From an uncultured Anaerolineae bacterium (lineage in GTDB: Bacteria > Chloroflexota > Anaerolineae > VGOG01): DNA of 48,937 nucleotides. Positions 4,635 to 39,655 of the stretch are shown in pieces. A program made the translations under genes and the position numbers. Positions within the stretch are counted from its first letter, which is position 1; every line of letters begins with the position of its first letter. Under the pieces are notes generated by a model. It was not told the origin of the DNA, did not search any database, and saw nothing but the letters and a program-made list of their open reading frames with translations. Location of the stretch: contig CAYWWC010000002.1 in the NCBI GenBank assembly GCA_964461615.1, positions 1 through 48,937 of the forward strand. Direction: 5' to 3'.

Positions 4635-4784
4635 GTGGTTCGACGGTGTGATCTGTGTTCTTCGTCCGCACCGAATCTCCAGTGGACCCCCGATGGGCTT
4701 GACCAACCTGTCGGGGTCTCTTTTTGGTCTTGCGTGGGCTCTTCCGTATGGGCTATATTGTCTGCACACACTGGAGAACAGTAG

Positions 4785-5039
4785 ATGACATCAATGGTCA
4801 ACAATTCAAAGGGCTTGGGTCGCAGGCAGAAGTTTATTTTGAAGAATCTGGGCAGTGTCCCGTTCAATACGCCTTCCGGCCTTTCCCAAGCGTTTTACGG
4901 TAAAACAGACCCCAATCACCGGAAAATGATCTGGAGATCATTGCAAAATCTGCGTGGGCGGGGTTTTGTGTACGTGATTGAGGGTAGATATAGCCTGACG
5001 GTAGAAGGGAGCAACCTTGTATCAAGTTTACAGCAGTGA
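4785..5039 (+). CDS. Winged helix-turn-helix protein
   Basis: W..L..L..RG.V...G.YSLT.EG wing motif; GGAG RBS; similar to 40280..40525. Confidence 0.75.
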   Translation: MTSMVNNSKGLGRRQKFILKNLGSVPFNTPSGLSQAFYGKTDPNHRKMIWRSLQNLRGRGFVYVIEGRYSLTVEGSNLVSSLQQ

Positions 5040-5340: not shown

Positions 5341-5758
5341 TCGTGATGATCCGTTTGACATTGATCCGGCCTTCCAAACGCGGTTGGAAGCTGAAAACAT
5401 AGCCCAGATGGCTGAAATTGATGAAGAAAATGATGTTACAATGAGCCAGCTGGCAGACGCAATCGAGGTAGAACATGAAGCAAAGGCAGCTCTCGGTGAG
5501 GATGTCACTGTTTCGGCAGAAACAAGGCCCGATGGGGCAGTGGGAGAGCAATTTGAATGGATCAGGGGGATACGTTTACGACAAAAAGCCCGGAGTGAAG
5601 GAAGAACTGTCGAGTCGGGGGATAGCGTTGACACAGGCTGTCGAAAATATGAACAAACCCCAACCAGCAAAAAGCACGGCGGTGTAGTCACCCGTCACAA
5701 GCCATATGTCGACAAGCGTACCGCGCAGCAGCGCAAGGAGATGGGCGAAGATGGATAA
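5294..5758 (+). CDS. Hypothetical protein (acidic N-half, basic C-half)
   Basis: In ORF 5267..5758; GAGGAGG precedes ATG 5294. Confidence 0.65.
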   Translation: MPQEKSNLLPRKHNYDRDDPFDIDPAFQTRLEAENIAQMAEIDEENDVTMSQLADAIEVEHEAKAALGEDVTVSAETRPDGAVGEQFEWIRGIRLRQKARSEGRTVESGDSVDTGCRKYEQTPTSKKHGGVVTRHKPYVDKRTAQQRKEMGEDG

Positions 5759-6413
5759 GTTCACAAAGGTTTGCTTGAGGATTGAAGAAAATGAAGGTGG
5801 AATTTCCAACGATTCAGCAGATCCGGGAGGTCTCACGATCTTTGGTATTACCGAGCGAGATTGGGGAGAAGAGTTCTTCTGGGATATTCTTAGAGATGCT
5901 ATTGAAGAAAATAGTGGAAAGGTCGCCGGAATACGTCTCTCTATTGAGGACAATTCACGCATCCGGGCTCGGACAAGGACCATCATGCGTGAGCATTACT
6001 ATGACCAGATCGGCGCAAGGGAAGATTTTGTCCCACTCCGTCTTGCATACTTGCTTACAGACCATGCCTTCAACGCCGGAGTCGCCAGAACGGGTCGCCT
6101 TCTTCAGTCCGCGCTTAATGACATTGCCGACCAAGAATTCCGTCAAGTCCAGAAAAAGGCCCGAAAACGAGGCGGAACAGTAAAACGGAAAATGCCCCGG
6201 CTGGTGGAAGACGGGGTTGTTGGTCGTAAAACGATAGAAATGATGAAATCGGCCGTCAAGGGGAATCGACTCGCTACGCTTTTGACTGTCATTGTCGCGA
6301 AAAGATTCGTATATTACACGCAACTCGCGAAACAGAATCCCGCGCTGTCAAAATATTGGTGGCACTGGGTTCAAAGGTGCCAGTTTGATCCCGAAGGAGG
6401 AGGTTCCTCATGA
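5751..6413 (+). CDS. Endolysin, glycosyl hydrolase family 108 with peptidoglycan-binding motif
   Basis: EGG..ND..DPGG.T.FGIT signature, D.A.N.G, LVEDGVVGRKT, C-terminal W..R. Confidence 0.9.
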   Translation: MDKFTKVCLRIEENEGGISNDSADPGGLTIFGITERDWGEEFFWDILRDAIEENSGKVAGIRLSIEDNSRIRARTRTIMREHYYDQIGAREDFVPLRLAYLLTDHAFNAGVARTGRLLQSALNDIADQEFRQVQKKARKRGGTVKRKMPRLVEDGVVGRKTIEMMKSAVKGNRLATLLTVIVAKRFVYYTQLAKQNPALSKYWWHWVQRCQFDPEGGGSS

Positions 6414-7276
6414 AATGGTTGGCGTTGTTTCTGACGCTGCTGGTTGGGTTGCTCACGTTTCTTGCGGTTCAGGCTGGTCCGCTCGAAACAGACGTTATTT
6501 ACATCCAAGATTCCACGATTATCTACGGTCAGGACTCGACATACGCCAATTATCATGTCGAATTCAAGTGGACAGACTGGGATTTGCTTGATGTCGGTAG
6601 CGATGTGACGAAAGGCAACAGTAGTTGGCCCAATCCGCGTGGTTTATCGTCTATTTTGTCCGGTTGGGCTCCATCGACGATGGAAGATGACAGTTTATGG
6701 TGTGTAGCTTGGGGTGATTCGGTCCATTTCGACTCAACCGAAAACCGAATGTACTGGTTGAGCAAGAAAAGGGACGATGCTGATGCTGGAGGTGCTTTTT
6801 CAGCGGCTGAACTGGCAGCATTCCAAGAAGACAACAGCATGAAAATCCGGCACTTCTTCTTCGAACGCACCTTCCCGTACTATTATGTTGAAGCCCACTG
6901 CGAAGTCCACGATTCTGGCACAGTTTACCTCATGTTCGGAACCGATACAGTCCTCACCCTGAATGCCGTTGAGTCTCAAACCGCTTATTATCGTCCGCCC
7001 AGAGCCAGCAGGGATATGGTTGCCTTGTTGAAAGCCGATACTTCGACTGGTACAGGCATGTATATCGACTCTATCAGGGCGGTTCCATGCAATGGTGATT
7101 GGGCCGGTATTCAGCCTGTGAATGGTGACGCGACCATCCATATCAGAGGAATGTATCGTGGTGATACCGTAGAAGATACCTTGATATTGAAAAACGGGTT
7201 TTATTACCCGCTACATGCAGGCTGGGTACAGTTGGTCAACGGTGATGCCCTGCTTTACAAGGATAATGAACCGTGA
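6410..7276 (+). CDS. Secreted (Sec signal peptide) beta-rich protein
   Basis: MKWLALFLTLLVGLLTFLAVQA|GP signal-like N-terminus; GGAGGAGG RBS; many D-S/T-hydrophobic triplets. Confidence 0.8.
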   Translation: MKWLALFLTLLVGLLTFLAVQAGPLETDVIYIQDSTIIYGQDSTYANYHVEFKWTDWDLLDVGSDVTKGNSSWPNPRGLSSILSGWAPSTMEDDSLWCVAWGDSVHFDSTENRMYWLSKKRDDADAGGAFSAAELAAFQEDNSMKIRHFFFERTFPYYYVEAHCEVHDSGTVYLMFGTDTVLTLNAVESQTAYYRPPRASRDMVALLKADTSTGTGMYIDSIRAVPCNGDWAGIQPVNGDATIHIRGMYRGDTVEDTLILKNGFYYPLHAGWVQLVNGDALLYKDNEP

Positions 7277-7300
7277 TAGGTACTACTGGAGATCGCAAGA

Positions 7301-7885
7301 ATGAAAAAAATCATTGGCTTGAAAATACCCCTGTGGGTTGTGATACTCCTGCTTGGTATTATGGGCTTTGCAGGAAGTTACTTCGGGAAGACGGAAGAAG
7401 TTGTCCATTTTCAAAAAATGGAAGTCCGTATCCCTGTTCCACAGCCGCCAAAGATTGAACAACAGATCGTTTACCGTGAGGCAAAAGTTGAGCGAGATAC
7501 AATTACGGTTGAGATCCCCGCTGGAACGGTTGTTGGTGATGGGGGACCGCTTAGGATCAGAGTTGGAAGAGATCGACGTAGCGACTACGATTTCGACTAC
7601 AGTAGTGCGTATGTCCCCCCAGACTCCGTTGAGTACATTGATTTTAGCAGTATTAACAGCACAACGAGCACATCAAGACCTGTTGATTCAGCTTGGATTA
7701 GACTCTTCGCATATACGGGCGTCAGGGCCGACTTCAGCACTCCATTATCGAGACACGAGTACGATAGATGGTTGCAGGGTGGTATCGGTGCTGAATCCAG
7801 ACGGATCGGCAGATTGTCGCTCGGAATGGACATTGGTTGGTGGCAAGGATGGAACGCAGGATTAACCGCAAAGGTGTGGTTATGA
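7301..7885 (+). CDS. Membrane-anchored protein with C-terminal amphipathic beta strands (spanin-like candidate)
   Basis: N-terminal TM helix; IVYREAKVERDTITV stalk; alternating C-terminal strands ending AGLTAKVWL; lysis-cluster context. Confidence 0.6.
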   Translation: MKKIIGLKIPLWVVILLLGIMGFAGSYFGKTEEVVHFQKMEVRIPVPQPPKIEQQIVYREAKVERDTITVEIPAGTVVGDGGPLRIRVGRDRRSDYDFDYSSAYVPPDSVEYIDFSSINSTTSTSRPVDSAWIRLFAYTGVRADFSTPLSRHEYDRWLQGGIGAESRRIGRLSLGMDIGWWQGWNAGLTAKVWL

Positions 7886-8325
7886 ACTGGATGGATAGAT
7901 ATTGGTGGGCTCCCGGTACTCTGGCTGTTTTGATTCTGGTAATTGCGCTTGTTGTTAAAGCCGATCCACCATTCAGTCCCAGCGGCGACTATTATATCCC
8001 AAACAGCGGGCTCCCAACAGCGTCGACGTTGTGTTATGTTGATGTTGATTGGGAAGAATGGGTTACTGTTGAGTTGCTTTTTGAATGGGACTGGTATGTC
8101 GTTTCGTCTGACAGTCTTCATGTCCTAGCTCTAAAAAAAGCCGTTGGCTTTACCGAGGAAGACGTTTCCCTGTTACATGATGTTCATGGATTAAACTACG
8201 GCGCAATTCTTTCTCGTGAAGATGGACAAGAGTTTTTTGACAAAGACTCAACTCTGTCTGGTCATTGGCATAACGGGCGGGTTGTTTCGCAGGATAGTCT
8301 CCTGATGGAGGAGTTTTGGGAATGA
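7882..8325 (+). CDS. Secreted or membrane-anchored hypothetical protein
   Basis: ATGA overlap; LAVLILVIALVVKA|DPP signal-like segment. Confidence 0.7.
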   Translation: MNWMDRYWWAPGTLAVLILVIALVVKADPPFSPSGDYYIPNSGLPTASTLCYVDVDWEEWVTVELLFEWDWYVVSSDSLHVLALKKAVGFTEEDVSLLHDVHGLNYGAILSREDGQEFFDKDSTLSGHWHNGRVVSQDSLLMEEFWE

Positions 8326-9974
8326 AATGGCTCATGCTTTTCGCCATGTTGATCACAGCCGCAGCATTTGCACAGGTGACGCTGACGGTCGATGATGATA
8401 ATCCTCTTGAACTTGCAACGCTGGCAGATTATGCCGCGCTTTCGGGCAGGTCTGCCGATTCTCTTGTTGCGTTGATGATCGCTCGTCCATACGGATTCCA
8501 AATGTTGTGTCGGGATTACACGAATATTGACACAACAACCTATACCGCCGCCGCCTATGCTTATGCAGAATCCCCGTTTGGTGGAGATATTGTAGCTGCT
8601 CAGTTCAACGGATCAAAATACTGTTCGTGGACTGATGCTGATTTTCGAGATACACTGCAATGGCGTGACGGGATGCTGATCGAGGTGATTACAAACCCAT
8701 ACATTGGAACTGCTGGAACAGAGATTATTTATGCCCCTTGTGATCTTGATCAAGGTATTCTGGATCGTTATGGTGTTTGGCAACAGCGGGTTGAAAGTTC
8801 ATATATCGACACCCCGGATGACGACAGTTATTCCCACAACTGGAAGGTTTATTCGGTCTATATGGACGGAACCAATGTTCACGCCACGACTAATAACACA
8901 GAACACGCACCAATAGCGCACGGGAAAACCTCGCCGTATCAGGTAAATCCGGCAGACCCTGTAATTGGTGGCGGACACAATGCAAGTGGCAATGCTGATA
9001 ATTCGTTGTCTTACGAAGGGGCCGTGTCGATAGTTGCTGTGTGGCATTTTCCAAGTGAAGCCACTGGGGATAATTTTGACTTTACGCTGACATATGACGC
9101 GCTTGCAAAGTACATGCACATCCCAGACACAACCTTCAGAACATTAACTTCAGCAGGTGGATATGCCAGAAAGAATTTGACAACTGCAGGTCAGATGGAT
9201 ACGATAAAAATCATGCCGTCTGTTTTTTATCATCCAGCCGAAGTCCTTGACAGTCTGTTGGTGATCAAGGCAAACACGAAGAATACTGTCTGGTGGAATG
9301 ATTCTTTGACGCAGGGCAACACGGATCTTGGTGCAGTTCTGAACTTTGGTCAGGACGGATATGTCGCTCAAATTGACTCGTCTTACCGTGTTTATGTTTG
9401 TAGTTTGAACGTCAGAAATAACGATAATGGTCCGGGGATCAAGTTCAACGGTGATGCTGATGGTGAGATTGGGTGGAACGTACTCAAAAATAATTTAATC
9501 GGCATTGATCTCATAATTGCCGAAGCCCAAGATACCATTGAGGTTTACCACAATACAATTGTGGGTCCGGGTTCTGACGTGAACAATTCGCGAGGGGTCA
9601 GATCAAGTGCCTATGGCGGTGAGCCGGGAGGAGAATTAATTGTAACAGATAACATCGTCACTCTCCATAATGGGACAGCTTCATACGGCTATCAAAACGT
9701 AGCTGCCACAAAATTTTCTTACGGTCATACGTTGTTTTATTTGAACACTTCTAACACAAACGGGTCTTTTACTTCGATTGGGAACGATGTAACTGGACAA
9801 GTCCCCCAGTTTGTGGATGCTACGAGCCTGAATTTTTATCTGAAAGCAATTTCTCCTGCTTTTACAACGACATACACGGGTGGTACTTATTTGGGTGCGC
9901 TTGGCACAGAACCCGTTATTGGTCAGGGCGCACAGTTTCTTTTGTTTTTCAACGATGGAGTTGGTGATGACTAA
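8322..9974 (+). CDS. Secreted adhesin-like protein: LamG/concanavalin-like domain plus right-handed beta-helix
   Basis: Signal MKWLMLFAMLITAAAFA|Q; FNG...YMDG...IGG...YEGAVSIVAVW (LamG-like); HNTIVG, DNIV, PQFVD...NFYLKAISPA...LGA (pectin-lyase-like end). Confidence 0.75.
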   Translation: MKWLMLFAMLITAAAFAQVTLTVDDDNPLELATLADYAALSGRSADSLVALMIARPYGFQMLCRDYTNIDTTTYTAAAYAYAESPFGGDIVAAQFNGSKYCSWTDADFRDTLQWRDGMLIEVITNPYIGTAGTEIIYAPCDLDQGILDRYGVWQQRVESSYIDTPDDDSYSHNWKVYSVYMDGTNVHATTNNTEHAPIAHGKTSPYQVNPADPVIGGGHNASGNADNSLSYEGAVSIVAVWHFPSEATGDNFDFTLTYDALAKYMHIPDTTFRTLTSAGGYARKNLTTAGQMDTIKIMPSVFYHPAEVLDSLLVIKANTKNTVWWNDSLTQGNTDLGAVLNFGQDGYVAQIDSSYRVYVCSLNVRNNDNGPGIKFNGDADGEIGWNVLKNNLIGIDLIIAEAQDTIEVYHNTIVGPGSDVNNSRGVRSSAYGGEPGGELIVTDNIVTLHNGTASYGYQNVAATKFSYGHTLFYLNTSNTNGSFTSIGNDVTGQVPQFVDATSLNFYLKAISPAFTTTYTGGTYLGALGTEPVIGQGAQFLLFFNDGVGDD

Positions 9975-10206
9975 GCTCTGGGACAAGATTACAAGCACGA
10001 AACGCATTGCGTTTGCCACATATTTTCTGTTGTGGATTCTGGTATATATCCCGGCCTCTTCACTTATTGTGAAATTTGTTGGCGTTCCTGATGACATGGT
10101 ACTGGAAGGCTTGAAATGGTGTGCTGGTGTAGCTGGCGCGATCATTACCGGACAGTCTGTGTCTGACAGTATCATGGCAGGGAAGAAGACCAAGATTGAA
10201 AGCTGA
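9967..10206 (+). CDS. Putative holin
   Basis: 79 aa, two hydrophobic segments, I.GQ...D motif, basic C-terminus. Confidence 0.6.
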   Translation: MTKLWDKITSTKRIAFATYFLLWILVYIPASSLIVKFVGVPDDMVLEGLKWCAGVAGAIITGQSVSDSIMAGKKTKIES

Positions 10207-11030
10207 TGGCTTGGGACGAAATTCCTGTTGGCAGGGGAAAATTCAAAAAGGTCCGCAAAATACGGCTCAAGAACCCGAAGAGTCATGCGGAAATGTTCGA
10301 ACTTCTCCTGTCTTTTTTGGTTACGGAGGTGTTCCGCGACAAGGTTGTCGACGATGATTTCATGGATAAGAAATTTTCGATGCGCGACCTGCGTTATGCA
10401 TACCTTCGTTTGAAAGGAACCTCAAAGGCCGAGGCATACCGGGGGGCGGGATATGCCCCAACAAAGAATTACCGGCAGATTGAGGCAAAGGAAACAAATC
10501 CTGTAGTTAGGGAAATTATGCTTACTGTATTGTCAAAAGGGATGGTCGACGCAAATCTTCCGCCACAGGAACTGGTCAGGCGGATCATGGAGACGATTGA
10601 TCAGATCGAAGACCCAATTGACAAGAAGAATGCCCTGATGGAACTGGCTGTTCAGGCCGGTTATGGCATTCGTCCACTGGAAATCATCGCTGATGTTGAA
10701 AAACACGCCGGAGGAATGGAAGAAATCCTCCGTAAGATGATGGCTGTCCCCGAAAATAACGCAGCTGCTCTGGTGAACAATGTCGGATACGAAACTGATC
10801 AACTTCAAGGTGCGACCGGGGATGCCGGATCTGAGCCCGAAAGTTGGCCCGAATCCGGTGGAGTCGGTGTTGCAAGATCAACCAAGCAACGCGGGGCTCA
10901 CATCTCGGACGCTATTGTCGACTTGGCACTTGAAAATCGCGAGACTGTCGAACGAAGCCGAGTACCTAAACCACCCGCTTCTGACGATGAACGACAAGGC
11001 GTTGAGGGAGGTGCGGGAGAATCGGCCTGA
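10206..11030 (+). CDS. terS: Terminase small subunit
   Basis: AEAYRGAGYA HTH motif typical of TerS; directly upstream of TerL. Confidence 0.65.
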   Translation: MAWDEIPVGRGKFKKVRKIRLKNPKSHAEMFELLLSFLVTEVFRDKVVDDDFMDKKFSMRDLRYAYLRLKGTSKAEAYRGAGYAPTKNYRQIEAKETNPVVREIMLTVLSKGMVDANLPPQELVRRIMETIDQIEDPIDKKNALMELAVQAGYGIRPLEIIADVEKHAGGMEEILRKMMAVPENNAAALVNNVGYETDQLQGATGDAGSEPESWPESGGVGVARSTKQRGAHISDAIVDLALENRETVERSRVPKPPASDDERQGVEGGAGESA

Positions 11031-12684
11031 TGAATGGAAGTACCTCCTCGGTTGGCTGAAGGATGATCCGGTAGCTTTTGAAGTTTTTGCTCTCACACCA
11101 CGGGACCGCTACGGCAATATGTTGCCGGACAATAAGCATCCCGCCCTTGACGAAGGGGGACACGAAGGACTTGTTGGCCCCCGTTTCGGTGTCCCCCAGT
11201 TCCACATAGAAGCCCTTGACCGTCTTGCTTGCGGAACGGAACACCTTTGTATCATATGGCCTCGCGAACACGCTAAAACTACCGTCGAGCAAATTTTCAC
11301 CCTCCAATGTGTTACTTTCCGAAAGAAGCGATACATCCAATCGTTCTCCGAATCCAGAGAACAGGCGACATTGTGGCTTGATGCCGTTTCCCACGAGTTG
11401 TTGACAAACCCGCGTATCCATCTCCTTTCCGGCGGGGCTTTGAAAAAACTGCGTCGAACCCGCAGTCGGAAAGTCGAGGAAAACAAATGGTCAACGACCC
11501 GGATTGTGACCCAAAATGGCATCATGCTGGAGGCAATCGGCTGGGGTCAGAAGCCGCGAGGTCGTAAGTTCCGGTCGTTTCGTCCTGACCTTGTGTTTCT
11601 TGACGATTTCGAGAGTGAGGAAAACACCAATACGGAGAACCTGCGGGAAAAAGTCAGGCGGTTCATCCGTCGCAAGGTCATGCCAGCCATCGAAAAGCAG
11701 GGTGGGCAGCTGGTTCTTACCGGCACAATCGTTCATGTCGACTCCTTCCTGAACCGTTCATACAACATTTACCAGCAGATGTTGAGCACAGGACAGCCCA
11801 ACTTCTGGGAAGTGATGTTCCTTCAGATCGAAGATACGAACGGTAAGCCTATCTGGGGCAAGCGGTATTCAAAAGAATGGATCATCCGAAAAGGCATAGA
11901 AGCTCGTGCTGCTGGTGACTGGGAAGGCTTCCGGCAAGAGTATTACAACGAACCAATGTCTGATGAAAAACGCCGGATGAAGCCTCATGTCCGGTTGTTT
12001 GACGGAAATCTCTTTTGGCGAAACGGCGGCATGGAACCGTGGATGACGATTAAACGCTATCTTCGCCACAACAACGCTTTGCCGGGGGCGATCGAGCCGC
12101 GCAATCAATTTGATCAGATTACTGTCCCGGTTCACATCTATGCCGGACTTGATTTGGGATTCACAAATAAGGACGAATCTGATTATACGGCGATGATTTT
12201 GGTTGCGGTCGATCCTGATGAAAACTACTACTATTTTCATGACACATCCGGTCCAATGGATTACGGTCAAATTGAAATGGGTCTGGATAGAGCGGACTCC
12301 CAGTTCCGCCCAATTTTATGGCGTTCAGAAACAAATGGGGCGCAAGGGCTGGTACAGGCTGGGATTCAGAGAAACCGGGCTACACAAAATCGACCGCCCT
12401 TTAATATTATCGCAGATGCTGAGAGTATTGGCAAAGACGCACGAATTGATCGTATATTAGGACCATTGAGGAAAGGGAACGTCTACGTCCATATTACTTT
12501 GACAAATTACCTGAAGGATATGGACGATTGGCCTTCGCCAGCAAGACGGGACAGGTTGGACGCGGGAGAAAAGGCAATCAGGGAAGCGATGCCTCCGCCG
12601 CGACCTCCGACACTGAATGCTGAAGGTTTTTATGATGACGAGGAAGTCGAAGTTCAAGATGACTCAAGCTGGATAACGGTATGA
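10780..12684 (+). CDS. terL: Terminase large subunit
   Basis: PREHAKTT Walker A, RG...RPDLVFLDDFE Walker B, GT..H.DS, F.QEYYNEP, nuclease GLDLG...SDYTA and DRLDA; start could be 10988. Confidence 0.93.
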   Translation: MSDTKLINFKVRPGMPDLSPKVGPNPVESVLQDQPSNAGLTSRTLLSTWHLKIARLSNEAEYLNHPLLTMNDKALREVRENRPDEWKYLLGWLKDDPVAFEVFALTPRDRYGNMLPDNKHPALDEGGHEGLVGPRFGVPQFHIEALDRLACGTEHLCIIWPREHAKTTVEQIFTLQCVTFRKKRYIQSFSESREQATLWLDAVSHELLTNPRIHLLSGGALKKLRRTRSRKVEENKWSTTRIVTQNGIMLEAIGWGQKPRGRKFRSFRPDLVFLDDFESEENTNTENLREKVRRFIRRKVMPAIEKQGGQLVLTGTIVHVDSFLNRSYNIYQQMLSTGQPNFWEVMFLQIEDTNGKPIWGKRYSKEWIIRKGIEARAAGDWEGFRQEYYNEPMSDEKRRMKPHVRLFDGNLFWRNGGMEPWMTIKRYLRHNNALPGAIEPRNQFDQITVPVHIYAGLDLGFTNKDESDYTAMILVAVDPDENYYYFHDTSGPMDYGQIEMGLDRADSQFRPILWRSETNGAQGLVQAGIQRNRATQNRPPFNIIADAESIGKDARIDRILGPLRKGNVYVHITLTNYLKDMDDWPSPARRDRLDAGEKAIREAMPPPRPPTLNAEGFYDDEEVEVQDDSSWITV

Positions 12685-14756
12685 TTCAGGCTGGCTTTGA
12701 ACAGGGAATAGGCATAGGGCAGATGGCCCAGATTGAGGATGAAGAACTTCTTCCTTCGAGTCGGGACGGTCTTCTTGGTGCTCTCGATCCGCCTCCGCAC
12801 ACGTTAAGCATTGATGCCGCTTCCAAATCAAACATCAATGGCAGTGATGTTCATCATGAAATTGAAGAGCGCCTGACGGCGTTTCGTTCGTTTCATGATC
12901 GAGCTCTTCGTGGTATGGAAATGATCTGGGGCGGGCATTATACGGCTGCTGAAATCGCCGCAATGAAACGCCAGAAGATGACCCCGATCAAGATGAATTA
13001 CTTGCGTCAGGCCGTTCGTTCTCTTGTTCGGTATTATACCGCAAATAATCCGTCATTTGATGTTGTTGCGATGGAGGGCGGCGACGAACAAATGGCTTCG
13101 GTATTCGGTTTCCTGTTGCGGCGGATGTTTCATATCAGCCGTGGCAACATGCAGATGCAACGAGCTGTCAAATGGCTTATCGGTTCTGGGCAAACCACGA
13201 TTGTCCCCTATTGGGATGCCTTAGCCGAGCGCGGCAGGGGTGATTTGAAGTTCCGACATTGGCCTACCCACCAATCTCTTCCTGATCCATATTCACAAGA
13301 CCCGCTATATACCGACACCGACCTTTGGCTGTTGTTCCAGTATGTAACACCACAACAGGCAATGCGTCATTATCCTCATCTGGCACAGGAACTCCAGTAT
13401 GTGGCCTCTGTGCCGGATGTTTCCAGACCGGGATCGAACTGGACAACACACGAAGGTGTCCCGTTTCAGGAAAATCAGAACGCCTCGATGTTACGCCAGT
13501 CCCAAGCGTTCCGTAGAACATGGGCTCCTCTGTATGTTTTACACACACCGTATGATACTTTTGAATTTAATATGCCACCGGATACAATCCCGTGGGCATT
13601 GCAGTTGTTACAGCAACAAATGGCCCGAATAGAAGTTCAGTCACAGAATATTTACGAGACATCGGTATTTCTGGACCGTCTGCAGGTTAGCCCGTGGATG
13701 AAATTATATACAGACACCTGCCCCGTGGTTTCGACTTCGTATGAGGATACGGGCGGCTATGAACCGATGTCCAATACACAACCAATGGGCGAGCCTGAAT
13801 TTGTCCATGAAGTTGTCAGAACCTTGAACAAGGCAATGTCAACTGTCATGCTTCATGCCCAGCAAACCGCAAACCCACGCATTGCTTATCCTACCGGATC
13901 ACTGCAGGGAGCTCAGAATGCCCAGATGGACAAGGCTCGCCAGATGTTCAGTGCGCCGGGATCACATTTACCATTTAATGGTCAGACTCCACCGATCACG
14001 CTTTCACCAACCCCGATGAACGAGGCGTTCTATGGAATTTACCTCGAAATGGCTAAATTCCTTCGTGAAACAACAGGGTCTGACGTATTCCTGCACGATG
14101 CTCGGGCCGCCGAAACATGGCACGGGTATCTTGCACAGCTGGAAAACGCGAGAGAACAGGTTGGTGATGTCACTGATCGAATCGAAGCTATGCTCGTCCA
14201 GCTTGGTTCAGCGTCTGTCCAGATGATGCAGCAGTATTATGCTGGTCAGCCCAGAACATTCCGCATGATGAATGATCGTGTTGCAAAAGAACGTCAGGTC
14301 CGTGTGAATGATGTGACTGCAATTGGTCCGGGGATTATTGGTAAATTGCTGGATGTTTCGCAGGGTCGGTATGATGTCCAAGTCGTTGGAGGTTCTTATG
14401 CTCCTACCCAGCGCACGGCAAAGTTGTCTGCCATGCTTGAACTTGCGCGTGAAGGCATTGTTGATGGTACGGAAGTGCGGAAGCTGGCTCCGATTGAAAA
14501 TCCGCAGGAAATAGAACAGCGGATGGGCGAAGTTCAGAAGATGCAGCACCTGCTTGAGGCTTATGAACGTGATCTCAGTCAGAAGAATATCCTGTTGCGG
14601 CAGTTCTTGAAGCAGGTTATGGAAGCTGATCGTATGATCGCGAAAGTGCAACTTACCGGCGAAAAGAACGTCGAACTTGAAAAATTCCGAGCTAAACTGG
14701 CTCTGATGGCAGCAGAAGCAGAACAGGAACTTGAAAAAGAAGGAGCTGAAGGATGA
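12681..14756 (+). CDS. Portal protein (P22/SU10-like)
   Basis: Follows TerL; N.LR..V...N.P.F.V.A.EG.DE.MA, GRYDVQV..G...PTQR, C-terminal coiled coil. Confidence 0.88.
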   Translation: MIQAGFEQGIGIGQMAQIEDEELLPSSRDGLLGALDPPPHTLSIDAASKSNINGSDVHHEIEERLTAFRSFHDRALRGMEMIWGGHYTAAEIAAMKRQKMTPIKMNYLRQAVRSLVRYYTANNPSFDVVAMEGGDEQMASVFGFLLRRMFHISRGNMQMQRAVKWLIGSGQTTIVPYWDALAERGRGDLKFRHWPTHQSLPDPYSQDPLYTDTDLWLLFQYVTPQQAMRHYPHLAQELQYVASVPDVSRPGSNWTTHEGVPFQENQNASMLRQSQAFRRTWAPLYVLHTPYDTFEFNMPPDTIPWALQLLQQQMARIEVQSQNIYETSVFLDRLQVSPWMKLYTDTCPVVSTSYEDTGGYEPMSNTQPMGEPEFVHEVVRTLNKAMSTVMLHAQQTANPRIAYPTGSLQGAQNAQMDKARQMFSAPGSHLPFNGQTPPITLSPTPMNEAFYGIYLEMAKFLRETTGSDVFLHDARAAETWHGYLAQLENAREQVGDVTDRIEAMLVQLGSASVQMMQQYYAGQPRTFRMMNDRVAKERQVRVNDVTAIGPGIIGKLLDVSQGRYDVQVVGGSYAPTQRTAKLSAMLELAREGIVDGTEVRKLAPIENPQEIEQRMGEVQKMQHLLEAYERDLSQKNILLRQFLKQVMEADRMIAKVQLTGEKNVELEKFRAKLALMAAEAEQELEKEGAEG

Positions 14757-15379
14757 AAAAGCCCTGCTTTGGACTGTGGATTGTTTTGCTGATCGCAGTC
14801 CTCATGGCCCTGCCCGCACAGGCAGAAGACTGGTGGACAAACACGGCACATTTGTATCATCCCGCTGTTGGTGATACGGCGGAAGATGCATTGTCAACAG
14901 ATTCCATCGTCACTTTCTCGTATCAGTTGGGACGATTACCGGCTGGTTATTTTTATCGTGATGATTGTCAGGCAGCCATTCGGTTAAAACTCGAATGTTT
15001 GGATGATGAAGATTCGTCTGGGACACAAGCACTTCGAAATCTGCAATGGTTTATGTCTGATAATGATTCTTCTGAAGGATGGTTTTCCCAGCGGCGTACT
15101 TTCTTTTGGGATAGTACAAAGGGAAGCCCAACCATTGGGACTTATCCGATTGTAGAAAAGTTGGACTCTATTGCGGATTTGGACACGAACACATGGGTTT
15201 GGCTATGGCTTGAGCCGCAGAAGGAATCATTGTACGATACTGCAAAAGCGGGGCGGCTCCGATATGAGCCGTACCCAACAACTGGAAATTTATGGGTAGA
15301 AATGGATTTTGTTGATTATACGAACGGCGATTCCATTAAGATTTCTGTTGAAAAAAGAGTAATTCAGTGGGACGAATAG
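14753..15379 (+). CDS. Secreted (Sec signal peptide) protein inside the head module
   Basis: MKKPCFGLWIVLLIAVLMALPAQA|ED with AxA site; ATGA overlap with portal; AGGAG RBS. Confidence 0.8.
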   Translation: MKKPCFGLWIVLLIAVLMALPAQAEDWWTNTAHLYHPAVGDTAEDALSTDSIVTFSYQLGRLPAGYFYRDDCQAAIRLKLECLDDEDSSGTQALRNLQWFMSDNDSSEGWFSQRRTFFWDSTKGSPTIGTYPIVEKLDSIADLDTNTWVWLWLEPQKESLYDTAKAGRLRYEPYPTTGNLWVEMDFVDYTNGDSIKISVEKRVIQWDE

Positions 15380-16657: not shown

Positions 16658-17923
16658 GTGGCAATTTATAATCCGGGCTCTGGTAGCTCGCCTGCCAACA
16701 TGTGGAACACTTATGTAGATGCTGGTAACAGTGTTTATGGTCCGATCAGTGAACGGCGCGTTCGTGATTTGGATTCGGTGATTCACTGGCTTGAACCGGA
16801 TCAAACGCCGTGGTACACCTTCTTGACCTCGCTTCCGGCTCGTACAACTGTGAACCCGAAGTTCGAGTGGTTTGAAGGTGATGCACTGGCTCGATCCGAC
16901 ACTGTATCCAGTGGTGATACATGGGCCAGTAATGAAGCGACCCTCACCATGTCGGATGGCGATCTGTTCCATACTTACCAGATCGTTCAGATGCAGTACA
17001 CTGACGTCACAGCATTTAACGTCATTGCGATTGTGACGGGTGTCAGTGGAAACAATGTTACGTTCAAAGGCATTACCGGTCATGCAACTTCCACTGTTGC
17101 GAACGATACCGTTGTGGAAATCATCGGTACAGCGCACCCGGAAGGTTCTGGTCGTGGTGAAGCACACATGCAGGCGATGGTTCCGAAAAGCAACTTCACT
17201 CAGATTTTCAAGTCCGAAGTTGCAATGTCGGGTACTGCTGTACAGGCTGCATGGTACGGTATGGACGAATGGAAGCTCCGTGTCATGGAAGCAACCGTTG
17301 CTCACAAGAAGGACATTGACTTTGGCCTTCTGATGGGTGAATGGTTTAACTCCGGCACAGAGACTTACGACAACAACGTCTTTTCCGGTTCGACCATGTA
17401 CACAGCTCACCGTGCTTCGCGCGGTTTCTACCGCTTCATTTCCACCAACAGCGGTTCGGCGGCTGACACTGATTACACGCTGCGTTCCGGTGGCACCAAC
17501 TTCTTCTACACGGCCCGTCAGTACCTGCGGTATGGTTCAAAGCGGAAGATCCTCATGGTCTCTGACTATGTGGCTGCGTTCTATCAGCTGAAGGATTTCC
17601 TCGAAGACACACCGCAGGTTCAGATTGAAAAGCCGCGTACCACGAAGCTGGGCTTCAACGCGCAGTCGTTCCTGACACCGTTCGGCACCGTTGATCTCGT
17701 CATTCACCCGCGCTTGTCCAGTTCGGATTACTCTGGTTACAATTTCTGGATTGATCCAGCAAATGTCCGTCGCCGTCCGATGCGGAACCGTGACACGAAG
17801 TACCGTCCGATTCCGTTCACCGGTCAGGACTCGGTTGAAGGCGAAATCCTGACAGAGGTCGGCCTGCAGTGCATGCAGGAACAGACCCACGGTTTCTTTG
17901 AAATCACGGGTCTGACCTCATAA
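16658..17923 (+). CDS. Major capsid protein (DUF5309/SU10-type HK97 fold)
   Basis: TP...PKFEWFE, NFTQIF...V.MSGT, HK.DI...LL.G, TPFGTV.LV.HP, RP..NRDT, G.ILTE.GL...EQTHG; AGGAG RBS. Confidence 0.9.
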   Translation: MAIYNPGSGSSPANMWNTYVDAGNSVYGPISERRVRDLDSVIHWLEPDQTPWYTFLTSLPARTTVNPKFEWFEGDALARSDTVSSGDTWASNEATLTMSDGDLFHTYQIVQMQYTDVTAFNVIAIVTGVSGNNVTFKGITGHATSTVANDTVVEIIGTAHPEGSGRGEAHMQAMVPKSNFTQIFKSEVAMSGTAVQAAWYGMDEWKLRVMEATVAHKKDIDFGLLMGEWFNSGTETYDNNVFSGSTMYTAHRASRGFYRFISTNSGSAADTDYTLRSGGTNFFYTARQYLRYGSKRKILMVSDYVAAFYQLKDFLEDTPQVQIEKPRTTKLGFNAQSFLTPFGTVDLVIHPRLSSSDYSGYNFWIDPANVRRRPMRNRDTKYRPIPFTGQDSVEGEILTEVGLQCMQEQTHGFFEITGLTS

Positions 17924-37838: not shown

Positions 37839-38337
37839 TCACTTGATCGAACGCCGCTGTTACAAAATTGATTGCATCATAATCAAGACCGATGTTTCTA
37901 CTTTGTAACTGGTGGAGAAAGCTGGATATCGCTTCCCGTTTTGCGGTCAACATCTCTGTTGTACGGGTTCTGGAAAGCGGGCCGAGCTTTTCGTCTTCAA
38001 GCTGTTGTTCCAACTCAGCCACCTTCTTCGTAAGAGTCAGTTCCTCTTCGGTTCCCCAATCATTGTGTGCAGATAGCTTCACAATATTTTTGGGATTGCC
38101 ATCGCTGTTTTCAATACGAAGAATAACTTCATCCTTGTCAGGATGATATCTATTGCTTCGCACCTGTACGGTAACTCGTTCTCGAAGAAAACGGTTGCTG
38201 TATCCCTTGCTACCAACAACATTAAATCGTGCGGTGGCGGTGTTGGACGCTTTTCCAATCTGGAAACCGTTGCCTTTTGTTTGATAAACGATTCTGGTGC
38301 TGTCACTGATCCTTTTCAGATCGACTAATGGTTCCAT
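37825..38337 (-). CDS. Hypothetical protein (last gene of the minus arm)
   Basis: 170 aa, AGGAG RBS, 3' end overlaps the giant gene by 14 bp. Confidence 0.7.
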   Translation of the reverse strand: MEPLVDLKRISDSTRIVYQTKGNGFQIGKASNTATARFNVVGSKGYSNRFLRERVTVQVRSNRYHPDKDEVILRIENSDGNPKNIVKLSAHNDWGTEEELTLTKKVAELEQQLEDEKLGPLSRTRTTEMLTAKREAISSFLHQLQSRNIGLDYDAINFVTAAFDQVINDL

Positions 38338-39655
38338 GTTGTTCTCCTGTCATAACCTTAGTTACACCTTCTTCGAGTAATGGCCCGAAGTCTCCAGTTT
38401 CAAAAGCTCTATCGTTAATATCCAGTCGGCGCTTCCATTCGATGATTTCAGGAGCGGCCCACGGATGAGTTTTCCACAACACGTAGGTTGGATAACCGGT
38501 GTTGATCCGAAAATCGTAAAGGTTTGATGGAACGGCATATAGATCACCCTCTTCATAAGGAGATGTTTGATATAAGGATGTTGTTGGATCAAACGCTCGT
38601 GATGCGCCTAACAACAGAAAAACGCAAGCAAGACCAATCGCTCCTATTCGAATTACCTCCGGTGTAATGTAATGCAGTTTGCTCAATGTCAAAGATAGAA
38701 GAATCGGCAGAATAACAGTCATCACACGCCACGGGGTAAATGCACCAAGTTGGGGGAATATCAATGTCAGCACAATCATTGAGATAGCAAAAAGTGATAC
38801 CTTCAGCAGGAATCTTGAGAAAAGAAGATTGTGTCCAGCGAACCGGTAATATATCAACATGGATATTGTCAGGAAAAAGAGAACTACCACGGGATGATCG
38901 GTCATAAATACTTTTGGGTCTGCATGGTGTGGGAAACGCCAAACCAAAATACTAGCTGCTTGAAGTTTTTCAGTTAATGTTCCTTGAGAGAGCCCGGATA
39001 TCCAGAAGATATTTAATAGCGCCACGACTGGTGCAGCAATGGTTTTTGCTGGCTCTTTCCATGAACGATGTGGATACTTCAAAAGTATCCAGAAGCCCCA
39101 TAGAATAAGGGTTGCAACCGCATAGCCCGGATGCATAATTGCGCCAATTGAAAGGAATATTGAAGTCTTTTTGGCGCTTTTCCGCCATAATGCATTAACA
39201 ATTCCAGCCAGAGTGAACGCACCGAATGATGCTGGTGTCAATGATGCAGTCATCATCATCTGTCTGGCAAATCCCAGTCCGATGTAATCAAAAGCTGGAT
39301 GCCATAACAGGTAATGTGCGATGATCATTCCGGCAGTCCAAAATACAAGTCGTTTGCTTTCGCTTACGAACATCGCCATTCGAAGCAGCCCCCAAGCGTA
39401 CAGCCAGAACAGCATCAGGTTAATGACATGTAGCAACCAGCCCGCATTTAATGACACTGCAGTTAGTACAATGAGGGAATAAGCAGGAAACGGGTCTGTG
39501 AACTCGGTAAATGGATCTTGATCCAAGTTCCCATGACCCGCAAAAGCCAGTGCATGGATCGTATATGTATGTTGGTTTCCTGACCAGAGAGCTTCGGGAC
39601 CAACCGTAATAAAAAGTAGTGTCCCTACAATTAAAGATAGAATCCCCAGTTTCAT
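38303..39655 (-). CDS. Polytopic membrane protein, DUF6798-like putative GT-C glycosyltransferase
   Basis: About 10 or more hydrophobic segments; first loop GNQHTY..HALA..G.G.L.QD.....DPFP.YS; RFPHHA.P; TPWR; C-terminal FR.NTG.PTYV.WK.HP.....EW..R. Confidence 0.65.
   Translation of the reverse strand: MKLGILSLIVGTLLFITVGPEALWSGNQHTYTIHALAFAGHGNLDQDPFTEFTDPFPAYSLIVLTAVSLNAGWLLHVINLMLFWLYAWGLLRMAMFVSESKRLVFWTAGMIIAHYLLWHPAFDYIGLGFARQMMMTASLTPASFGAFTLAGIVNALWRKSAKKTSIFLSIGAIMHPGYAVATLILWGFWILLKYPHRSWKEPAKTIAAPVVALLNIFWISGLSQGTLTEKLQAASILVWRFPHHADPKVFMTDHPVVVLFFLTISMLIYYRFAGHNLLFSRFLLKVSLFAISMIVLTLIFPQLGAFTPWRVMTVILPILLSLTLSKLHYITPEVIRIGAIGLACVFLLLGASRAFDPTTSLYQTSPYEEGDLYAVPSNLYDFRINTGYPTYVLWKTHPWAAPEIIEWKRRLDINDRAFETGDFGPLLEEGVTKVMTGEQHGTISRSEKDQ

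What the first reader, a model, noticed from the sequence alone, without database searches (positions are those of the whole stretch)
6410..15379. Late-operon proteins with Sec signal peptides loaded with FCB O-glycosylation sequons: possible periplasmically glycosylated virion components
Seen: ORFs 6410, 7882, 8322 and 14753 have cleavable-looking signal peptides and 7301 has an N-terminal TM helix. Hand counts of D-(S/T)-(A/L/V/I/M/T): 9 in 288 aa, 3 in 147, 8 in 550, 6 in 208 and 3 in 194, versus about 1 in the 691-aa portal (the MCP has 4 in 421, so the contrast is not absolute). Known: this is the sequon of the general periplasmic O-glycosylation system of Bacteroidetes, and tailed-phage structural proteins normally fold in the cytoplasm without signal peptides. 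Inference: the phage exports late proteins, has them glycosylated, and either loads them onto virions at lysis (glycan cloak, RBP maturation) or remodels the host envelope. This could be an undescribed assembly pathway.
Basis: partly seen in the sequence, partly recalled or inferred. Interest (0 to 1): 0.85.

Follow-up and report, generated by a model that had tools for sequence, protein, structure and literature searches.

The report
Sequon-rich exported proteins of a phage
A previously unseen phage encodes five exported proteins carrying about ten times more Bacteroidota-type sugar-attachment motifs than its other proteins, which suggests they are glycosylated in the host envelope and probably act there rather than as parts of the virus particle.

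Summary
The five ORFs have Sec-type hydrophobic N-termini and carry 29 D-(S/T)-(A/L/V/I/M/T) sequons against 6.3-6.5 expected (z 9.35; the best of 5000 shuffles reached 15). The other 43 ORFs carry 31 against 38.5. Control motifs are not enriched, and the five proteins are not paralogs.

The virion reading is not supported. Four of the genes lie between a GH108 endolysin and a small holin-like ORF, which marks a lysis or egress cassette. The likely structural proteins have no sequon excess. Lysis-cassette membrane proteins of Bacteroides phages B124-14 and crAss001 show the same bias. My best reading is that these are exported, envelope-acting accessory proteins selected to be substrates of a Bacteroidota-type general O-glycosylation.

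The host is unresolved. The contig is a complete 48.9-kb phage genome at 47% GC, binned into a 59% GC Anaerolineae MAG. That MAG's own exported proteins show no bias. The phage uses Shine-Dalgarno sites heavily, unlike the phages of class Bacteroidia tested.

No homologues of the five proteins were found, so conservation could not be tested. My literature searches found no description of phage-encoded substrates of this glycosylation system.

The parts
5706..6413 (+). Endolysin (GH108 muramidase-like domain plus PG_binding_3). It has no hydrophobic N-terminus. Its stop overlaps the start of the next gene.
   Evidence: Pfam PF05838 at 2.8e-11 and PF09374 at 3.6e-5, just below its cut-off. PHROG 315 endolysin at 1.4e-23. 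1 sequon vs 0.56 expected.
6410..7276 (+). Exported protein, 288 aa, with a signal-peptide-like N-terminus (VQA|G) and 9 sequons. No known family.
   Evidence: 9 vs 1.44, 0 of 2000 shuffles reach it; Poisson p 1.8e-5. GGAGG precedes the start. No family hit except a sub-threshold match of residues 1-24 to the start of PF08194.
7301..7885 (+). Protein of 194 aa with a single N-terminal hydrophobic segment (signal anchor or cleavable) and 3 sequons in the C-terminal part. Its position and topology resemble an i-spanin.
   Evidence: 3 vs 0.57, p 0.017. No family hit.
7882..8325 (+). Protein of 147 aa (162 aa if the TTG at 7837 is the start) with one hydrophobic segment at residues 6-24, a VKA|D site and 3 sequons.
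   Evidence: 3 vs 0.62, p 0.026.
8322..9974 (+). Exported protein, 550 aa, with a signal peptide (AFA|Q) and 8 sequons. No known family.
   Evidence: 8 vs 2.83, p 0.007. Only itself found in 5.8 billion proteins by word search. The AF2 model is unusable, pLDDT 28.8.
9955..10206 (+). Small membrane ORF (83 aa from the ATG at 9955), holin-like by topology only. It closes the cassette that begins with the endolysin.
   Evidence: Translation. One strong hydrophobic segment (residues 16-32), a weaker second one seen by eye, and a basic tail. No PHROG or Pfam hit. Low confidence.
10780..12684 (+). Terminase large subunit (the true start is probably downstream of 10780). Context gene.
   Evidence: PHROG 38 at 3e-56. 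0 sequons vs 1.37 expected.
12681..14756 (+). P22-like portal protein. Context gene. Its stop overlaps the start of 14753.
   Evidence: PF16510 at 9.7e-29. PHROG 156. 1 sequon vs 1.36 expected.
14753..15379 (+). Exported protein, 208 aa, with a signal peptide (LPA|Q or AQA|E) and 6 sequons. It is inserted between the portal gene and a Q/P-rich scaffold-like gene.
   Evidence: 6 vs 1.09, 0 of 2000 shuffles reach it. AAGGAG precedes the start. GC 45%, like the rest of the phage. There is no gene in this position in the distant relatives L053, L054 and L061.
16658..17923 (+). Major capsid protein. Context gene, not significantly enriched in sequons.
   Evidence: PHROG 1328 at 1.3e-23. 4 sequons vs 1.69 expected, p 0.082.
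38303..39655 (-). Polytopic membrane protein, 450 aa, with a C-terminal DUF6798 domain. It lies outside the finding, and any link to glycosylation is speculative.
   Evidence: PF20604 at 2.2e-9. At least 6 hydrophobic segments. One 24%-identical homologue. The AF2 model is unusable, pLDDT 37.9. 0 sequons.

Best explanation
The window is the complete genome of a novel phage with a P22-like portal, about 49 kb long. Five genes on its long structural-gene strand encode proteins that the Sec pathway moves out of the cytoplasm. All five have been selected to carry many D-(S/T)-(L/I/V/T/A/M) sites, the acceptor motif of the general periplasmic O-glycosylation known from Bacteroidota. The most likely course of events is that they are exported unfolded, glycosylated at these sites by the host's own machinery, and thereby stabilised in the envelope, as is proposed for host glycoproteins.

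Four of them (6410, 7301, 7882, 8322) form a lysis or egress cassette together with the GH108 endolysin and a small holin-like ORF. I infer that they act on the envelope late in infection, for example by disrupting the outer layers in a spanin-like way or by degrading or masking surface structures so that progeny escape. The fifth (14753) is a lineage-specific insertion, translationally coupled to the portal gene, and is also exported. They are most likely not virion parts.

The true host is probably not the Anaerolineae MAG into which the contig was binned. It is more likely a Shine-Dalgarno-using bacterium that has a Bacteroidota-type sequon glycosylation system.

Shown here: the genes, their hydrophobic N-termini, the motif excess and its specificity, and the gene order.
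Inferred: export, glycosylation, the envelope function, and the host.
For: Motif excess and specificity:
- 29 vs 6.45 sequons (z 9.35). The five proteins hold the five lowest p-values of 48 ORFs. Control motifs are flat.
- 29 of 37 D[ST] dipeptides are followed by A/L/V/I/M/T (78% vs 38.6% by composition). In the other ORFs it is 31 of 102.
- The five proteins are unrelated to each other (best BLASTP E 0.06) and the sites are dispersed, so this is not one repeat or one family.
- Third-position usage and the Ser preference match the published glycosite logo (review PMC12871550, part 1 of the text read).

Controls with the same script:
- E. coli: 9 exported proteins, 7 vs 7.29.
- The Anaerolineae MAG: 352 exported-like ORFs at 0.84 of expectation, and 0 of 3017 ORFs with Poisson p<0.001.
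- Rhodothermus plasmid: soluble exported proteins 5 vs 0.75 and 6 vs 1.17.
- Bacteroides phage B124-14, ORF next to the endolysin: 4 vs 0.77. crAss001 gp27 ('lysis regulatory protein'): 4 vs 0.33.

Gene context:
- Order: endolysin, four exported genes, holin-like ORF, TerS-like gene, TerL, portal. Stop/start overlaps occur at 6410, 7882, 8322 and 14753.
- GGAG-type Shine-Dalgarno sites precede four of the five starts.
- The GC content of the five genes (45-49%) matches the phage.

Structural proteins show no excess.
Against: - No homologue of any of the five proteins was found, so conservation of the signal peptides and sequons could not be tested.
- No signal-peptide predictor was run. Both structure models were unusable.
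- None of the five has a lipobox, so a canonical two-component spanin pair is not present.
- The holin call rests on topology alone.
- Host evidence conflicts with a classical Bacteroidota host:
  - Shine-Dalgarno motifs precede 21 of 51 ORF starts (6.5x background), like a Shewanella phage. Four phages of class Bacteroidia give 0-2.4x.
  - There is no excess of the Bacteroidia-type promoter pattern (1 vs 0.98).
  - Gln follows the predicted cleavage site in only 1-2 of 4 proteins, against about 71% in Bacteroidetes (PMC5837995, passages).
  - The contig was binned with an Anaerolineae MAG.
- The 14753 gene is coupled to the portal gene, which leaves a head-assembly or virion role open.
- Glycosylation itself is untested.
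Confidence: 0.55

Rival explanations
1. Same export and glycosylation, different job. The proteins are surface-conversion, superinfection-exclusion or receptor-masking factors (in the manner of T5 Llp, Cor, or lambda Lom and Bor) rather than lysis or egress factors.
For: - They are exported proteins with no enzymatic or spanin signature.
- 14753 is an insertion absent at that position in the distant relatives L053, L054 and L061.
- A paper on P. gingivalis phages proposes that signal-peptide proteins of those phages modify the host outer membrane (PMC10367356, passages).
- Exported exclusion proteins inside late or tail regions are known (recalled: lambda lom and bor, phi80 cor, T5 llp).
Against: - Four of the genes are wedged between the endolysin and a holin-like ORF with overlapping stops and starts, which suggests co-expression with lysis genes.
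- No separate promoter or terminator stands out (16 promoter-like sites vs 15.7 in shuffles).
- Composition is not deviant.
- No integrase or repressor turned up in the Pfam scans of 20 minus-strand ORFs, so lysogenic conversion has no support.
Confidence: 0.2
2. The host is the Anaerolineae (Chloroflexota) bacterium of the bin, or another non-Bacteroidota organism. On this view the motif excess reflects an undescribed sequon-directed modification, possibly carried out by the phage's own polytopic DUF6798 membrane protein, or a structural constraint unrelated to glycans.
For: - The contig sits in a MAG whose RpoB is 88% identical to 'uncultured Anaerolineae' records.
- Shine-Dalgarno use is strong, as expected outside Bacteroidia.
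- DUF6798 was found by HMM in 47 of 300 other Chloroflexota genomes and in 0 of 14 control genomes, which include Bacteroides thetaiotaomicron.
- The oligosaccharyltransferase of the Bacteroidota system is still unidentified (review PMC12871550, passages).
Against: - GC is 47% against 58.6% for the bin.
- The contig shares no DNA or short spacer-like match with the other 492 contigs.
- 0 of 400 other Chloroflexota genomes hold a portal relative at E<=1e-5.
- The MAG's own exported-like ORFs have no sequon bias (0.84; no ORF with p<0.001).
- The phage's DUF6798 protein shares nothing with three Chloroflexota DUF6798 proteins by BLASTP beyond the short domain, and it has no glycosyltransferase family hit.
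- The exact match of the motif, its third-position spectrum and its Ser preference to the Bacteroidota logo would be a coincidence.
Confidence: 0.12
3. The exported, glycosylated proteins are virion components that join particles after lysis, as a glycan cloak or in receptor-binding-protein maturation.
For: - All five are on the structural-gene strand.
- 14753 lies between the portal and scaffold-like genes, and its start overlaps the portal stop.
- Nothing tested here excludes post-lysis decoration.
Against: - Four of the five lie in the lysis cassette, not among head or tail genes.
- None matches a structural family.
- The likely particle proteins (portal, MCP, and the 1424-, 574- and 3481-aa ORFs) have no sequon excess and no signal peptide.
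- The sequon-enriched counterparts found in B124-14 and crAss001 are annotated lysis-cassette proteins.
- Assembly of tailed phages in the cytoplasm is the established rule (general knowledge).
Confidence: 0.08
4. Chance or amino-acid composition.
For: The five proteins are somewhat rich in D (6.2-9.6%) and S+T (12.9-15.8%).
Against: Shuffles keep composition and still give 6.3-6.5 expected against 29 observed. The maximum of 5000 shuffles is 15. D[ST] followed by other residues is not enriched (8 vs 10.2).
Confidence: 0.01

Closest known systems
General protein O-glycosylation of Bacteroidota (motif D-(S/T)-(A/I/L/V/M/T) on non-cytoplasmic proteins)
   Same: - The motif is the same.
- The third-position spectrum is the same (L, I, V, T, A, S, M) and Ser is slightly preferred (against review PMC12871550).
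- The motif is restricted to proteins with export signals.
- The review states that any protein given the motif is glycosylated, even across species, so phage proteins exported in such a host should be substrates.
   Different: - The carriers are phage-encoded, and their density is much higher: all five carry 3-9 sites, whereas the review says about half of host non-cytoplasmic proteins carry the motif.
- The review does not contain the words 'phage' or 'viral'.
- The host is not shown to be a Bacteroidota, and it appears to use Shine-Dalgarno sites.
Signal-peptide proteins of Porphyromonas gingivalis phages that obey the Bacteroidetes Q-rule (Matrishin et al. 2023, PMC10367356; passages read)
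   Same: Phage-encoded proteins of unknown function with Sec signals show a Bacteroidetes-specific secretory adaptation. The authors infer use of the host secretion system and possible modification of the outer membrane.
   Different: - That paper deals with Gln after the cleavage site, not glycosylation ('glycosylat' occurs 0 times).
- Here the Q-rule is met in only 1-2 of 4 proteins, while the sequon signal is strong.
- Its Supplementary Data 4, which lists the genes, could not be read.
Lysis-cassette envelope proteins: spanins (lambda Rz/Rz1 type; recalled), crAss001 gp27 and B124-14 ORF016c
   Same: - The genes adjoin the endolysin and a holin-like ORF.
- 7301 has the N-terminal anchor plus periplasmic domain of an i-spanin.
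- crAss001 gp27 and B124-14 ORF016c, which are N-terminally anchored lysis-cassette proteins, are also sequon-enriched (4 vs 0.33 and 4 vs 0.77).
   Different: - There is no lipoprotein partner, because none of the five has a lipobox Cys.
- Two of the four are large soluble-looking proteins (288 and 550 aa), unlike any spanin.
- There is no sequence similarity to known spanin families in PHROGs.
Exported 'moron' and exclusion proteins inside late regions (lambda Lom and Bor, phi80/N15 Cor, T5 Llp; recalled)
   Same: These are exported proteins encoded among late or structural genes that are not virion parts. This is a precedent for 14753 sitting between the portal and scaffold-like genes.
   Different: - There is no homology: Pfam gives no hits.
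- There are no separate transcription signals and no deviant composition.
- Those proteins are not known to be glycosylated.

Membership tests
Substrate of Bacteroidota-type general O-glycosylation | Extracytoplasmic location (Sec signal peptide, lipoprotein signal or membrane anchor) | tested here: met
   Each of the five has a single N-terminal uncharged hydrophobic segment. Four have small residues at -3 and -1 after it. My own heuristic flags 4 of the 5 blind; it misses 7882 only because the ORF caller took the TTG start. SignalP was not available.
Substrate of Bacteroidota-type general O-glycosylation | D-(S/T)-(A/I/L/V/M/T) acceptor motif in the exported part | tested here: met
   29 sites, all downstream of the N-terminal segment, against 6.3 expected. 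Control motifs are flat.
Substrate of Bacteroidota-type general O-glycosylation | The host possesses the system (Bacteroidota; LFG-type locus) | tested here: inconclusive
   The host is unknown. The bin is Anaerolineae with no SusD hit and no sequon bias. The Por_Secre_tail search rang nowhere, controls included, so it is uninformative. Shine-Dalgarno use is unlike Bacteroidia phages. The Atlas neighbours of 6410 are Bacteroidota hypothetical proteins, but at scores of 0.81-0.83, which is only a lead.
Substrate of Bacteroidota-type general O-glycosylation | Glycan actually attached to the Ser/Thr | not testable with these tools
   This needs glycoproteomics or a gel shift in wild type against a glycosylation mutant.
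Two-component spanin (i-spanin plus o-spanin) | Genes adjacent to the endolysin or holin | tested here: met
   7301 and 7882 lie 0.9-1.5 kb downstream of the endolysin, inside the cassette.
Two-component spanin (i-spanin plus o-spanin) | i-spanin: N-terminal transmembrane anchor with a periplasmic (coiled-coil) domain | tested here: inconclusive
   The anchor is present in 7301. Coiled-coil content was not tested.
Two-component spanin (i-spanin plus o-spanin) | o-spanin: outer-membrane lipoprotein with a lipobox Cys | tested here: not met
   None of the five has a Cys at the end of its hydrophobic segment. The only early Cys is residue 5 of 14753, before the h-region.
Virion structural protein | Similarity to a known head, tail or fibre family | tested here: not met
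   No Pfam, PHROG or NCBIfam match for any of the five. No PDB sequence match for the three tested: 6410, 8322 and 14753.
Virion structural protein | Presence in purified particles | not testable with these tools
   This needs virion proteomics.
Moron / exported exclusion protein (Lom, Bor, Cor, Llp type) | Autonomous transcription signals and deviant composition | tested here: not met
   Promoter-like sites are at chance level (16 vs 15.7). No terminator brackets the genes. Gene GC is 45-49% against 47% for the genome.

The most novel reading that the evidence does not exclude
A sequon-directed protein O-glycosylation like that of Bacteroidota operates in a host outside class Bacteroidia. That host would use Shine-Dalgarno sites and would not clearly follow the Q-rule. 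Alternatively, the phage's own polytopic DUF6798 membrane protein supplies the activity. In either case the phage exploits it to glycosylate a set of exported late proteins, of which at least the portal-coupled 14753 protein ends up on, or helps mature, the released virion.
Probability: 0.08. Interest if true: 0.85.

Novelty: new variant of a known kind. Interest (0 to 1): 0.55.

Why it matters
If these phage proteins are glycosylated, three things follow.

1. Phages of hosts with this system would not merely tolerate the host's general O-glycosylation. They would be under selection to use it for their exported proteins. That offers small, non-essential model substrates for the open question of what this glycosylation is for; the 2025 review calls its function largely unknown.

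2. Sequon excess in signal-peptide proteins could serve as a sequence-only marker of host type for uncultured phages. Here it contradicts the bin assignment to an Anaerolineae MAG.

3. The combination of a Bacteroidota-type sequon signal with strong Shine-Dalgarno use hints that the system, or something like it, may extend beyond class Bacteroidia.

My four literature searches found no paper describing phage-encoded substrates of this system. Subscription journals and supplements were not searchable.

Tried and rejected
Homologues and conservation:
- Portal: the word search found only itself. Full HMMER found the nearest relative at 37% identity and the next at 28%.
- 8322: only itself.
- Scans of viral contigs with the portal alone and with 8322, 6410 and 14753 found nothing.
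- An alignment-based scan of viral contigs gave 80 loci at 19-29% portal identity. In these, tblastn of all 48 window proteins matched only TerL (69 loci), portal (80), MCP (52) and the endolysin (1). None of the five matched.
- Scans of metagenome contigs and genome contigs found nothing.
- Megablast and tblastn against cultured phages gave no DNA match and no portal match. The endolysin, TerL and MCP match only at 21-30% identity, across many host phyla, so this gives no host inference.

Structures:
- AF2 of 8322 (pLDDT 28.8) and of the DUF6798 protein with its one homologue (pLDDT 37.9) were too poor, so I ran no fold search.
- The Atlas's own models of 6410 and 14753 have pLDDT 0.53 and 0.41. 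Their neighbours score below the tool's bar.
- PDB sequence searches for four proteins found nothing below E 0.2.

Other checks:
- crAss-like ancestry: I considered it because of the 1380-aa and 3481-aa ORFs, but tblastn against crAss001 found nothing.
- Chlorobi plasmid pPAES01 as a test of a non-Bacteroidia lineage: 6 exported-like ORFs gave 3 vs 5.3, but it is a Trb conjugative plasmid of doubtful ancestry. I count it as uninformative.
- The lipoprotein family in L053, L054, L059, L061 and L064 has 8 sequons vs 1.4 expected. All of them come from one tandem DT[VIL]Y repeat and the hosts are unknown. I do not count it as support.
- I did not run complex prediction, because I claim no binding. 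I did not use the look-up of sequencing runs or read laying.

- Supplements of PMC10367356 and PMC12871550 were not seen.

Full report
**What the window is**

The window equals contig C2 of a 493-contig, 4.5-Mb assembly. Its two ends share an identical 55-bp stretch. Its GC content is 47.0% against 58.6% for the whole assembly. It holds no tRNA genes.

The plus strand from about 4.5 kb to 37.8 kb carries, in order:
- a GH108 endolysin (5706-6413);
- a large terminase (10780-12684);
- a P22-like portal (12681-14756);
- a Q/P-rich scaffold-like ORF (15475-16605);
- a major capsid protein (16658-17923);
- large ORFs of 1424 aa (listed from a TTG start), 574 aa and 3481 aa.

The minus-strand genes include RusA, a DnaC/IstB-like ATPase, AAA_24, DUF932 and Gp157-like proteins. 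I read this as a complete, novel phage genome. The nearest portal among 1.84 billion representative proteins is 37% identical and the next is 28%.

**Check of the observation**

The hand counts of D-(S/T)-(A/L/V/I/M/T) were exact: 9, 3, 3, 8 and 6, with 1 in the portal and 4 in the MCP.

- Against 2000 composition-preserving shuffles per protein, the five have the five lowest p-values of the 48 ORFs I tested: 0/2000, 0/2000, 0.007, 0.017 and 0.026. The next are 0.059 and 0.082 (the MCP).
- Pooled, they carry 29 sites against 6.45 expected (z 9.35; 0 of 1000 shuffles reach it). The other 43 ORFs carry 31 against 38.5.
- With the first 25 residues removed, the result is 29 against 6.34, and the best of 5000 shuffles reached 15.
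- The excess is specific to the motif. D[ST] followed by any other residue gives 8 vs 10.2. The reversed motif gives 2 vs 6.6. E in place of D gives 1 vs 3.4. N in place of D gives 6 vs 3.7. N-x-S/T gives 12 vs 8.9.
- In the five proteins, 37 of 112 Asp are followed by Ser/Thr (33% vs 14.6% by composition), and 29 of those 37 are followed by A/L/V/I/M/T (78% vs 38.6%). In the other ORFs the figures are 102 of 903 and 31 of 102, at or below composition.
- The five proteins are not paralogs (best pairwise BLASTP E 0.06), and the sites are scattered through non-repetitive sequence.

**Is this the Bacteroidota sequon?**

I read part 1 and selected passages of a 2025 review (PMC12871550). It states the following:
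- Asp almost always precedes the glycosylated Ser/Thr, and Glu is not tolerated in B. fragilis.
- Ser is slightly preferred over Thr.
- The next residue is most commonly L, I, V, T, A, S or M.
- About half of non-cytoplasmic proteins carry the motif.
- Engineered or foreign proteins that carry the motif are glycosylated, even across species.

In the five phage proteins the residue after D[ST] is L8, T7, I7, V4, S4, A3, and G, P, Y and N once each. Ser outnumbers Thr 23 to 14. That fit is close.

Controls run with the same script:
- *Negative.* Nine E. coli K-12 exported proteins in a 50-kb stretch give 7 vs 7.29. Exported-like ORFs of two phages of Proteobacteria give 3 vs 2.6 (7 ORFs); a third such phage has none.
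- *Positive.* On Rhodothermus marinus plasmid pRMAR01, a serine hydrolase gives 5 vs 0.75 and a peptidoglycan-recognition protein gives 6 vs 1.17. Outer-membrane barrels and cytoplasmic CRISPR proteins sit at expectation.
- *Cultured phages of class Bacteroidia.* Exported-like ORFs give 15 vs 7.6 overall (21 ORFs). The clear cases are B124-14 ORF016c, next to the endolysin (4 vs 0.77, p 0.007), and crAss001 gp27, annotated 'lysis regulatory protein' (4 vs 0.33, 0 of 300 shuffles). Flavobacterium phage 11b gp49, which follows its endolysin, gives 2 vs 0.43 (p 0.08). Most other flagged ORFs have none.

**Where the genes sit**

The stop of the endolysin overlaps the start of 6410. The starts at 7882 and 8322 likewise overlap the preceding stops. 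It runs up to the TerS-like gene. I call it holin-like from topology only; it has no family match.

So four of the five genes are enclosed in what looks like a lysis cassette placed ahead of the packaging genes. The fifth, 14753, overlaps the portal stop and precedes the scaffold-like gene. In the distant relatives L053, L054 and L061 the portal is followed directly by the scaffold-like gene, so 14753 looks like a lineage-specific insertion.

The five genes have the phage's own GC content (45-49%). No convincing private promoter or terminator stands out. GGAG-type ribosome-binding sites precede four of the five starts.

**Virion components?**

Nothing I could test supports this:
- The five match no structural family.
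- The likely particle proteins have neither export signals nor sequon excess: portal 1 vs 1.36, MCP 4 vs 1.69, 1424-aa ORF 4 vs 5.63, 574-aa ORF 2 vs 1.81, 3481-aa ORF 7 vs 7.42.
- The counterparts found in B124-14 and crAss001 are lysis-cassette proteins.

A post-lysis decoration role, especially for 14753, is not excluded. I give it about 8%.

**What they most likely do**

I commit to this reading. They are Sec-exported accessory proteins that act in the envelope late in infection. They are glycosylated there by the host's general system, which probably protects them from periplasmic proteolysis; the review mentions stabilisation as a possible function of the host glycans.

- 7301 has the layout of an i-spanin, but no lipoprotein partner exists. 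A canonical spanin pair is therefore ruled out.
- The 288-aa and 550-aa proteins are too large for spanins. They may attack or mask outer layers or receptors to free progeny. This step is inference only.
- A closely related rival is superinfection exclusion or surface conversion.

**The host problem**

The bin is an Anaerolineae (Chloroflexota): a 1230-residue RpoB fragment is 88% identical to 'uncultured Anaerolineae' records. It has no SusD match.

Evidence against this bin as the host:
- a 12-point GC gap;
- no shared DNA or spacer-like match with the other contigs;
- no portal relative in 400 other Chloroflexota genomes;
- no sequon bias in the bin's own proteome. Exported-like ORFs are at 0.84-0.87 of expectation. 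No ORF out of 3017 has Poisson p<0.001, whereas the phage's 6410 has p 1.8e-5.

Evidence against a classical Bacteroidia host:
- GGAG/GAGG precedes 21 of 51 blind-called ORF starts (6.5x background) and 23 of 45 curated starts. This is the same level as a Shewanella phage. The phages of class Bacteroidia give 0 of 58, 2 of 53, 9 of 99 and 10 of 60 (0-2.4x).
- Ribosomes of class Bacteroidia are reported to be blind to Shine-Dalgarno sequences (abstracts of PMC13000453 and PMC13000457 in the listing; passages of PMC7797042).
- The Bacteroidia-type promoter pattern is at chance level (1 vs 0.98).
- Gln follows the predicted cleavage site in 1-2 of 4 proteins. The average in Bacteroidetes is about 71%, most Chlorobi are below 9%, and other FCB lineages vary widely (PMC5837995, passages).

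I conclude that the host is an unidentified Shine-Dalgarno-using bacterium with a Bacteroidota-like sequon system. It may belong to a non-Bacteroidia lineage of Bacteroidota or the FCB group. This remains unexplained. The Rhodothermus sample hints that the bias extends beyond class Bacteroidia, but that plasmid showed no clear Shine-Dalgarno excess (7 of 48).

**A possibly relevant extra gene**

ORF 38303-39655 on the minus strand encodes a 450-aa polytopic membrane protein with a DUF6798 domain.
- It has one 24%-identical homologue.
- It has no glycosyltransferase family hit.
- No paper in the library mentions DUF6798.
- The domain occurs by HMM in 47 of 300 other Chloroflexota genomes and in none of 14 control genomes.
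- The phage protein shares nothing else with three of those proteins, and those proteins carry no other Pfam domain.

The oligosaccharyltransferase of the Bacteroidota system is still unknown. For that reason I keep a phage-encoded modifying enzyme as part of the bold reading only.

**Comparison with what is known, and novelty**

The parts are known: general O-glycosylation of Bacteroidota, phage lysis-cassette envelope proteins, and exported non-virion proteins in late regions. The closest published idea I found is that P. gingivalis phage proteins with signal peptides obey the Bacteroidetes Q-rule and so are adapted to the host secretion system. That paper does not mention glycosylation.

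Four full-text searches and the 2025 review (0 occurrences of 'phage' or 'viral') gave no description of phage-encoded substrates of this system or of sequon loading in phage proteins. I therefore rate the finding a new variant of a known kind.

Limits of this study:
- no homologues of the five proteins, so no conservation test;
- no signal-peptide predictor;
- unusable structure models;
- small control samples;
- an unidentified host;

Noticed in passing
window 1-55 and 48883-48937; whole window: The two contig ends are identical over 55 bp, which suggests a complete circular or terminally redundant phage genome. GC is 47.0% against 58.6% for the Anaerolineae bin that holds it, and no DNA is shared with the other 492 contigs. 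The contig was probably mis-binned.
   Followed up: partly
window 9955-10206 (+): An unlisted 83-aa ORF overlaps the end of 8322. It has one strong and one weak hydrophobic segment and a basic tail, so it is holin-like by topology. With the endolysin it brackets the four exported genes. It has no family match.
   Followed up: partly
window 38303-39655 (-): A 450-aa polytopic membrane protein with a DUF6798 domain. The domain is found in 47 of 300 other Chloroflexota genomes by HMM and in none of 14 control genomes, but there is no similarity beyond the domain. Function unknown.
   Followed up: partly
L053:4715-5278, L054:558-1121, L059:433-990, L061:1787-2344, L064:586-1143: In distant portal relatives from IMG/VR (GC about 38%, Shine-Dalgarno-using), the gene just upstream of the TerS-like, TerL and portal genes is a 185-187-aa lipoprotein-like protein. 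It has 8 sequons vs 1.4 expected, all within a tandem DT[VIL]Y repeat. The hosts are unknown.
   Followed up: partly
L163:6765-7370 (-) (B124-14 ORF016c); L167:25066-25695 (+) (crAss001 gp27); L165:28129-28593 (+) (11b gp49): Lysis-cassette proteins with an N-terminal anchor or lipoprotein signal in cultured phages of class Bacteroidia are sequon-enriched: 4 vs 0.77, 4 vs 0.33 and 2 vs 0.43. The enrichment may therefore be general for such phages.
   Followed up: partly
L172:8638-11164 (-) (Rhodothermus marinus pRMAR01): Soluble exported proteins of a member of Rhodothermia show a strong sequon excess (5 vs 0.75; 6 vs 1.17), and by eye most have Gln close after the predicted cleavage site. Neighbouring outer-membrane barrels and cytoplasmic proteins show no excess.
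   Followed up: no
window 27393-37838 (+): A 3481-aa ORF with no Pfam match. It has only a short PHROG 'phosphatase' segment at residues 842-914. It has no sequon excess (7 vs 7.42).
   Followed up: no
window 15475-16605 (+): A 376-aa ORF very rich in Gln, Pro and Met lies between 14753 and the MCP. I took it for a scaffold from its position only. It has no family match.
   Followed up: no
window 4483-4510: An 11-bp-stem hairpin followed by a T-run lies in the AT-rich divergent region between the minus-strand and plus-strand gene blocks. The Cys-rich ORF 4519-4788 next to it may not be a real gene.
   Followed up: no
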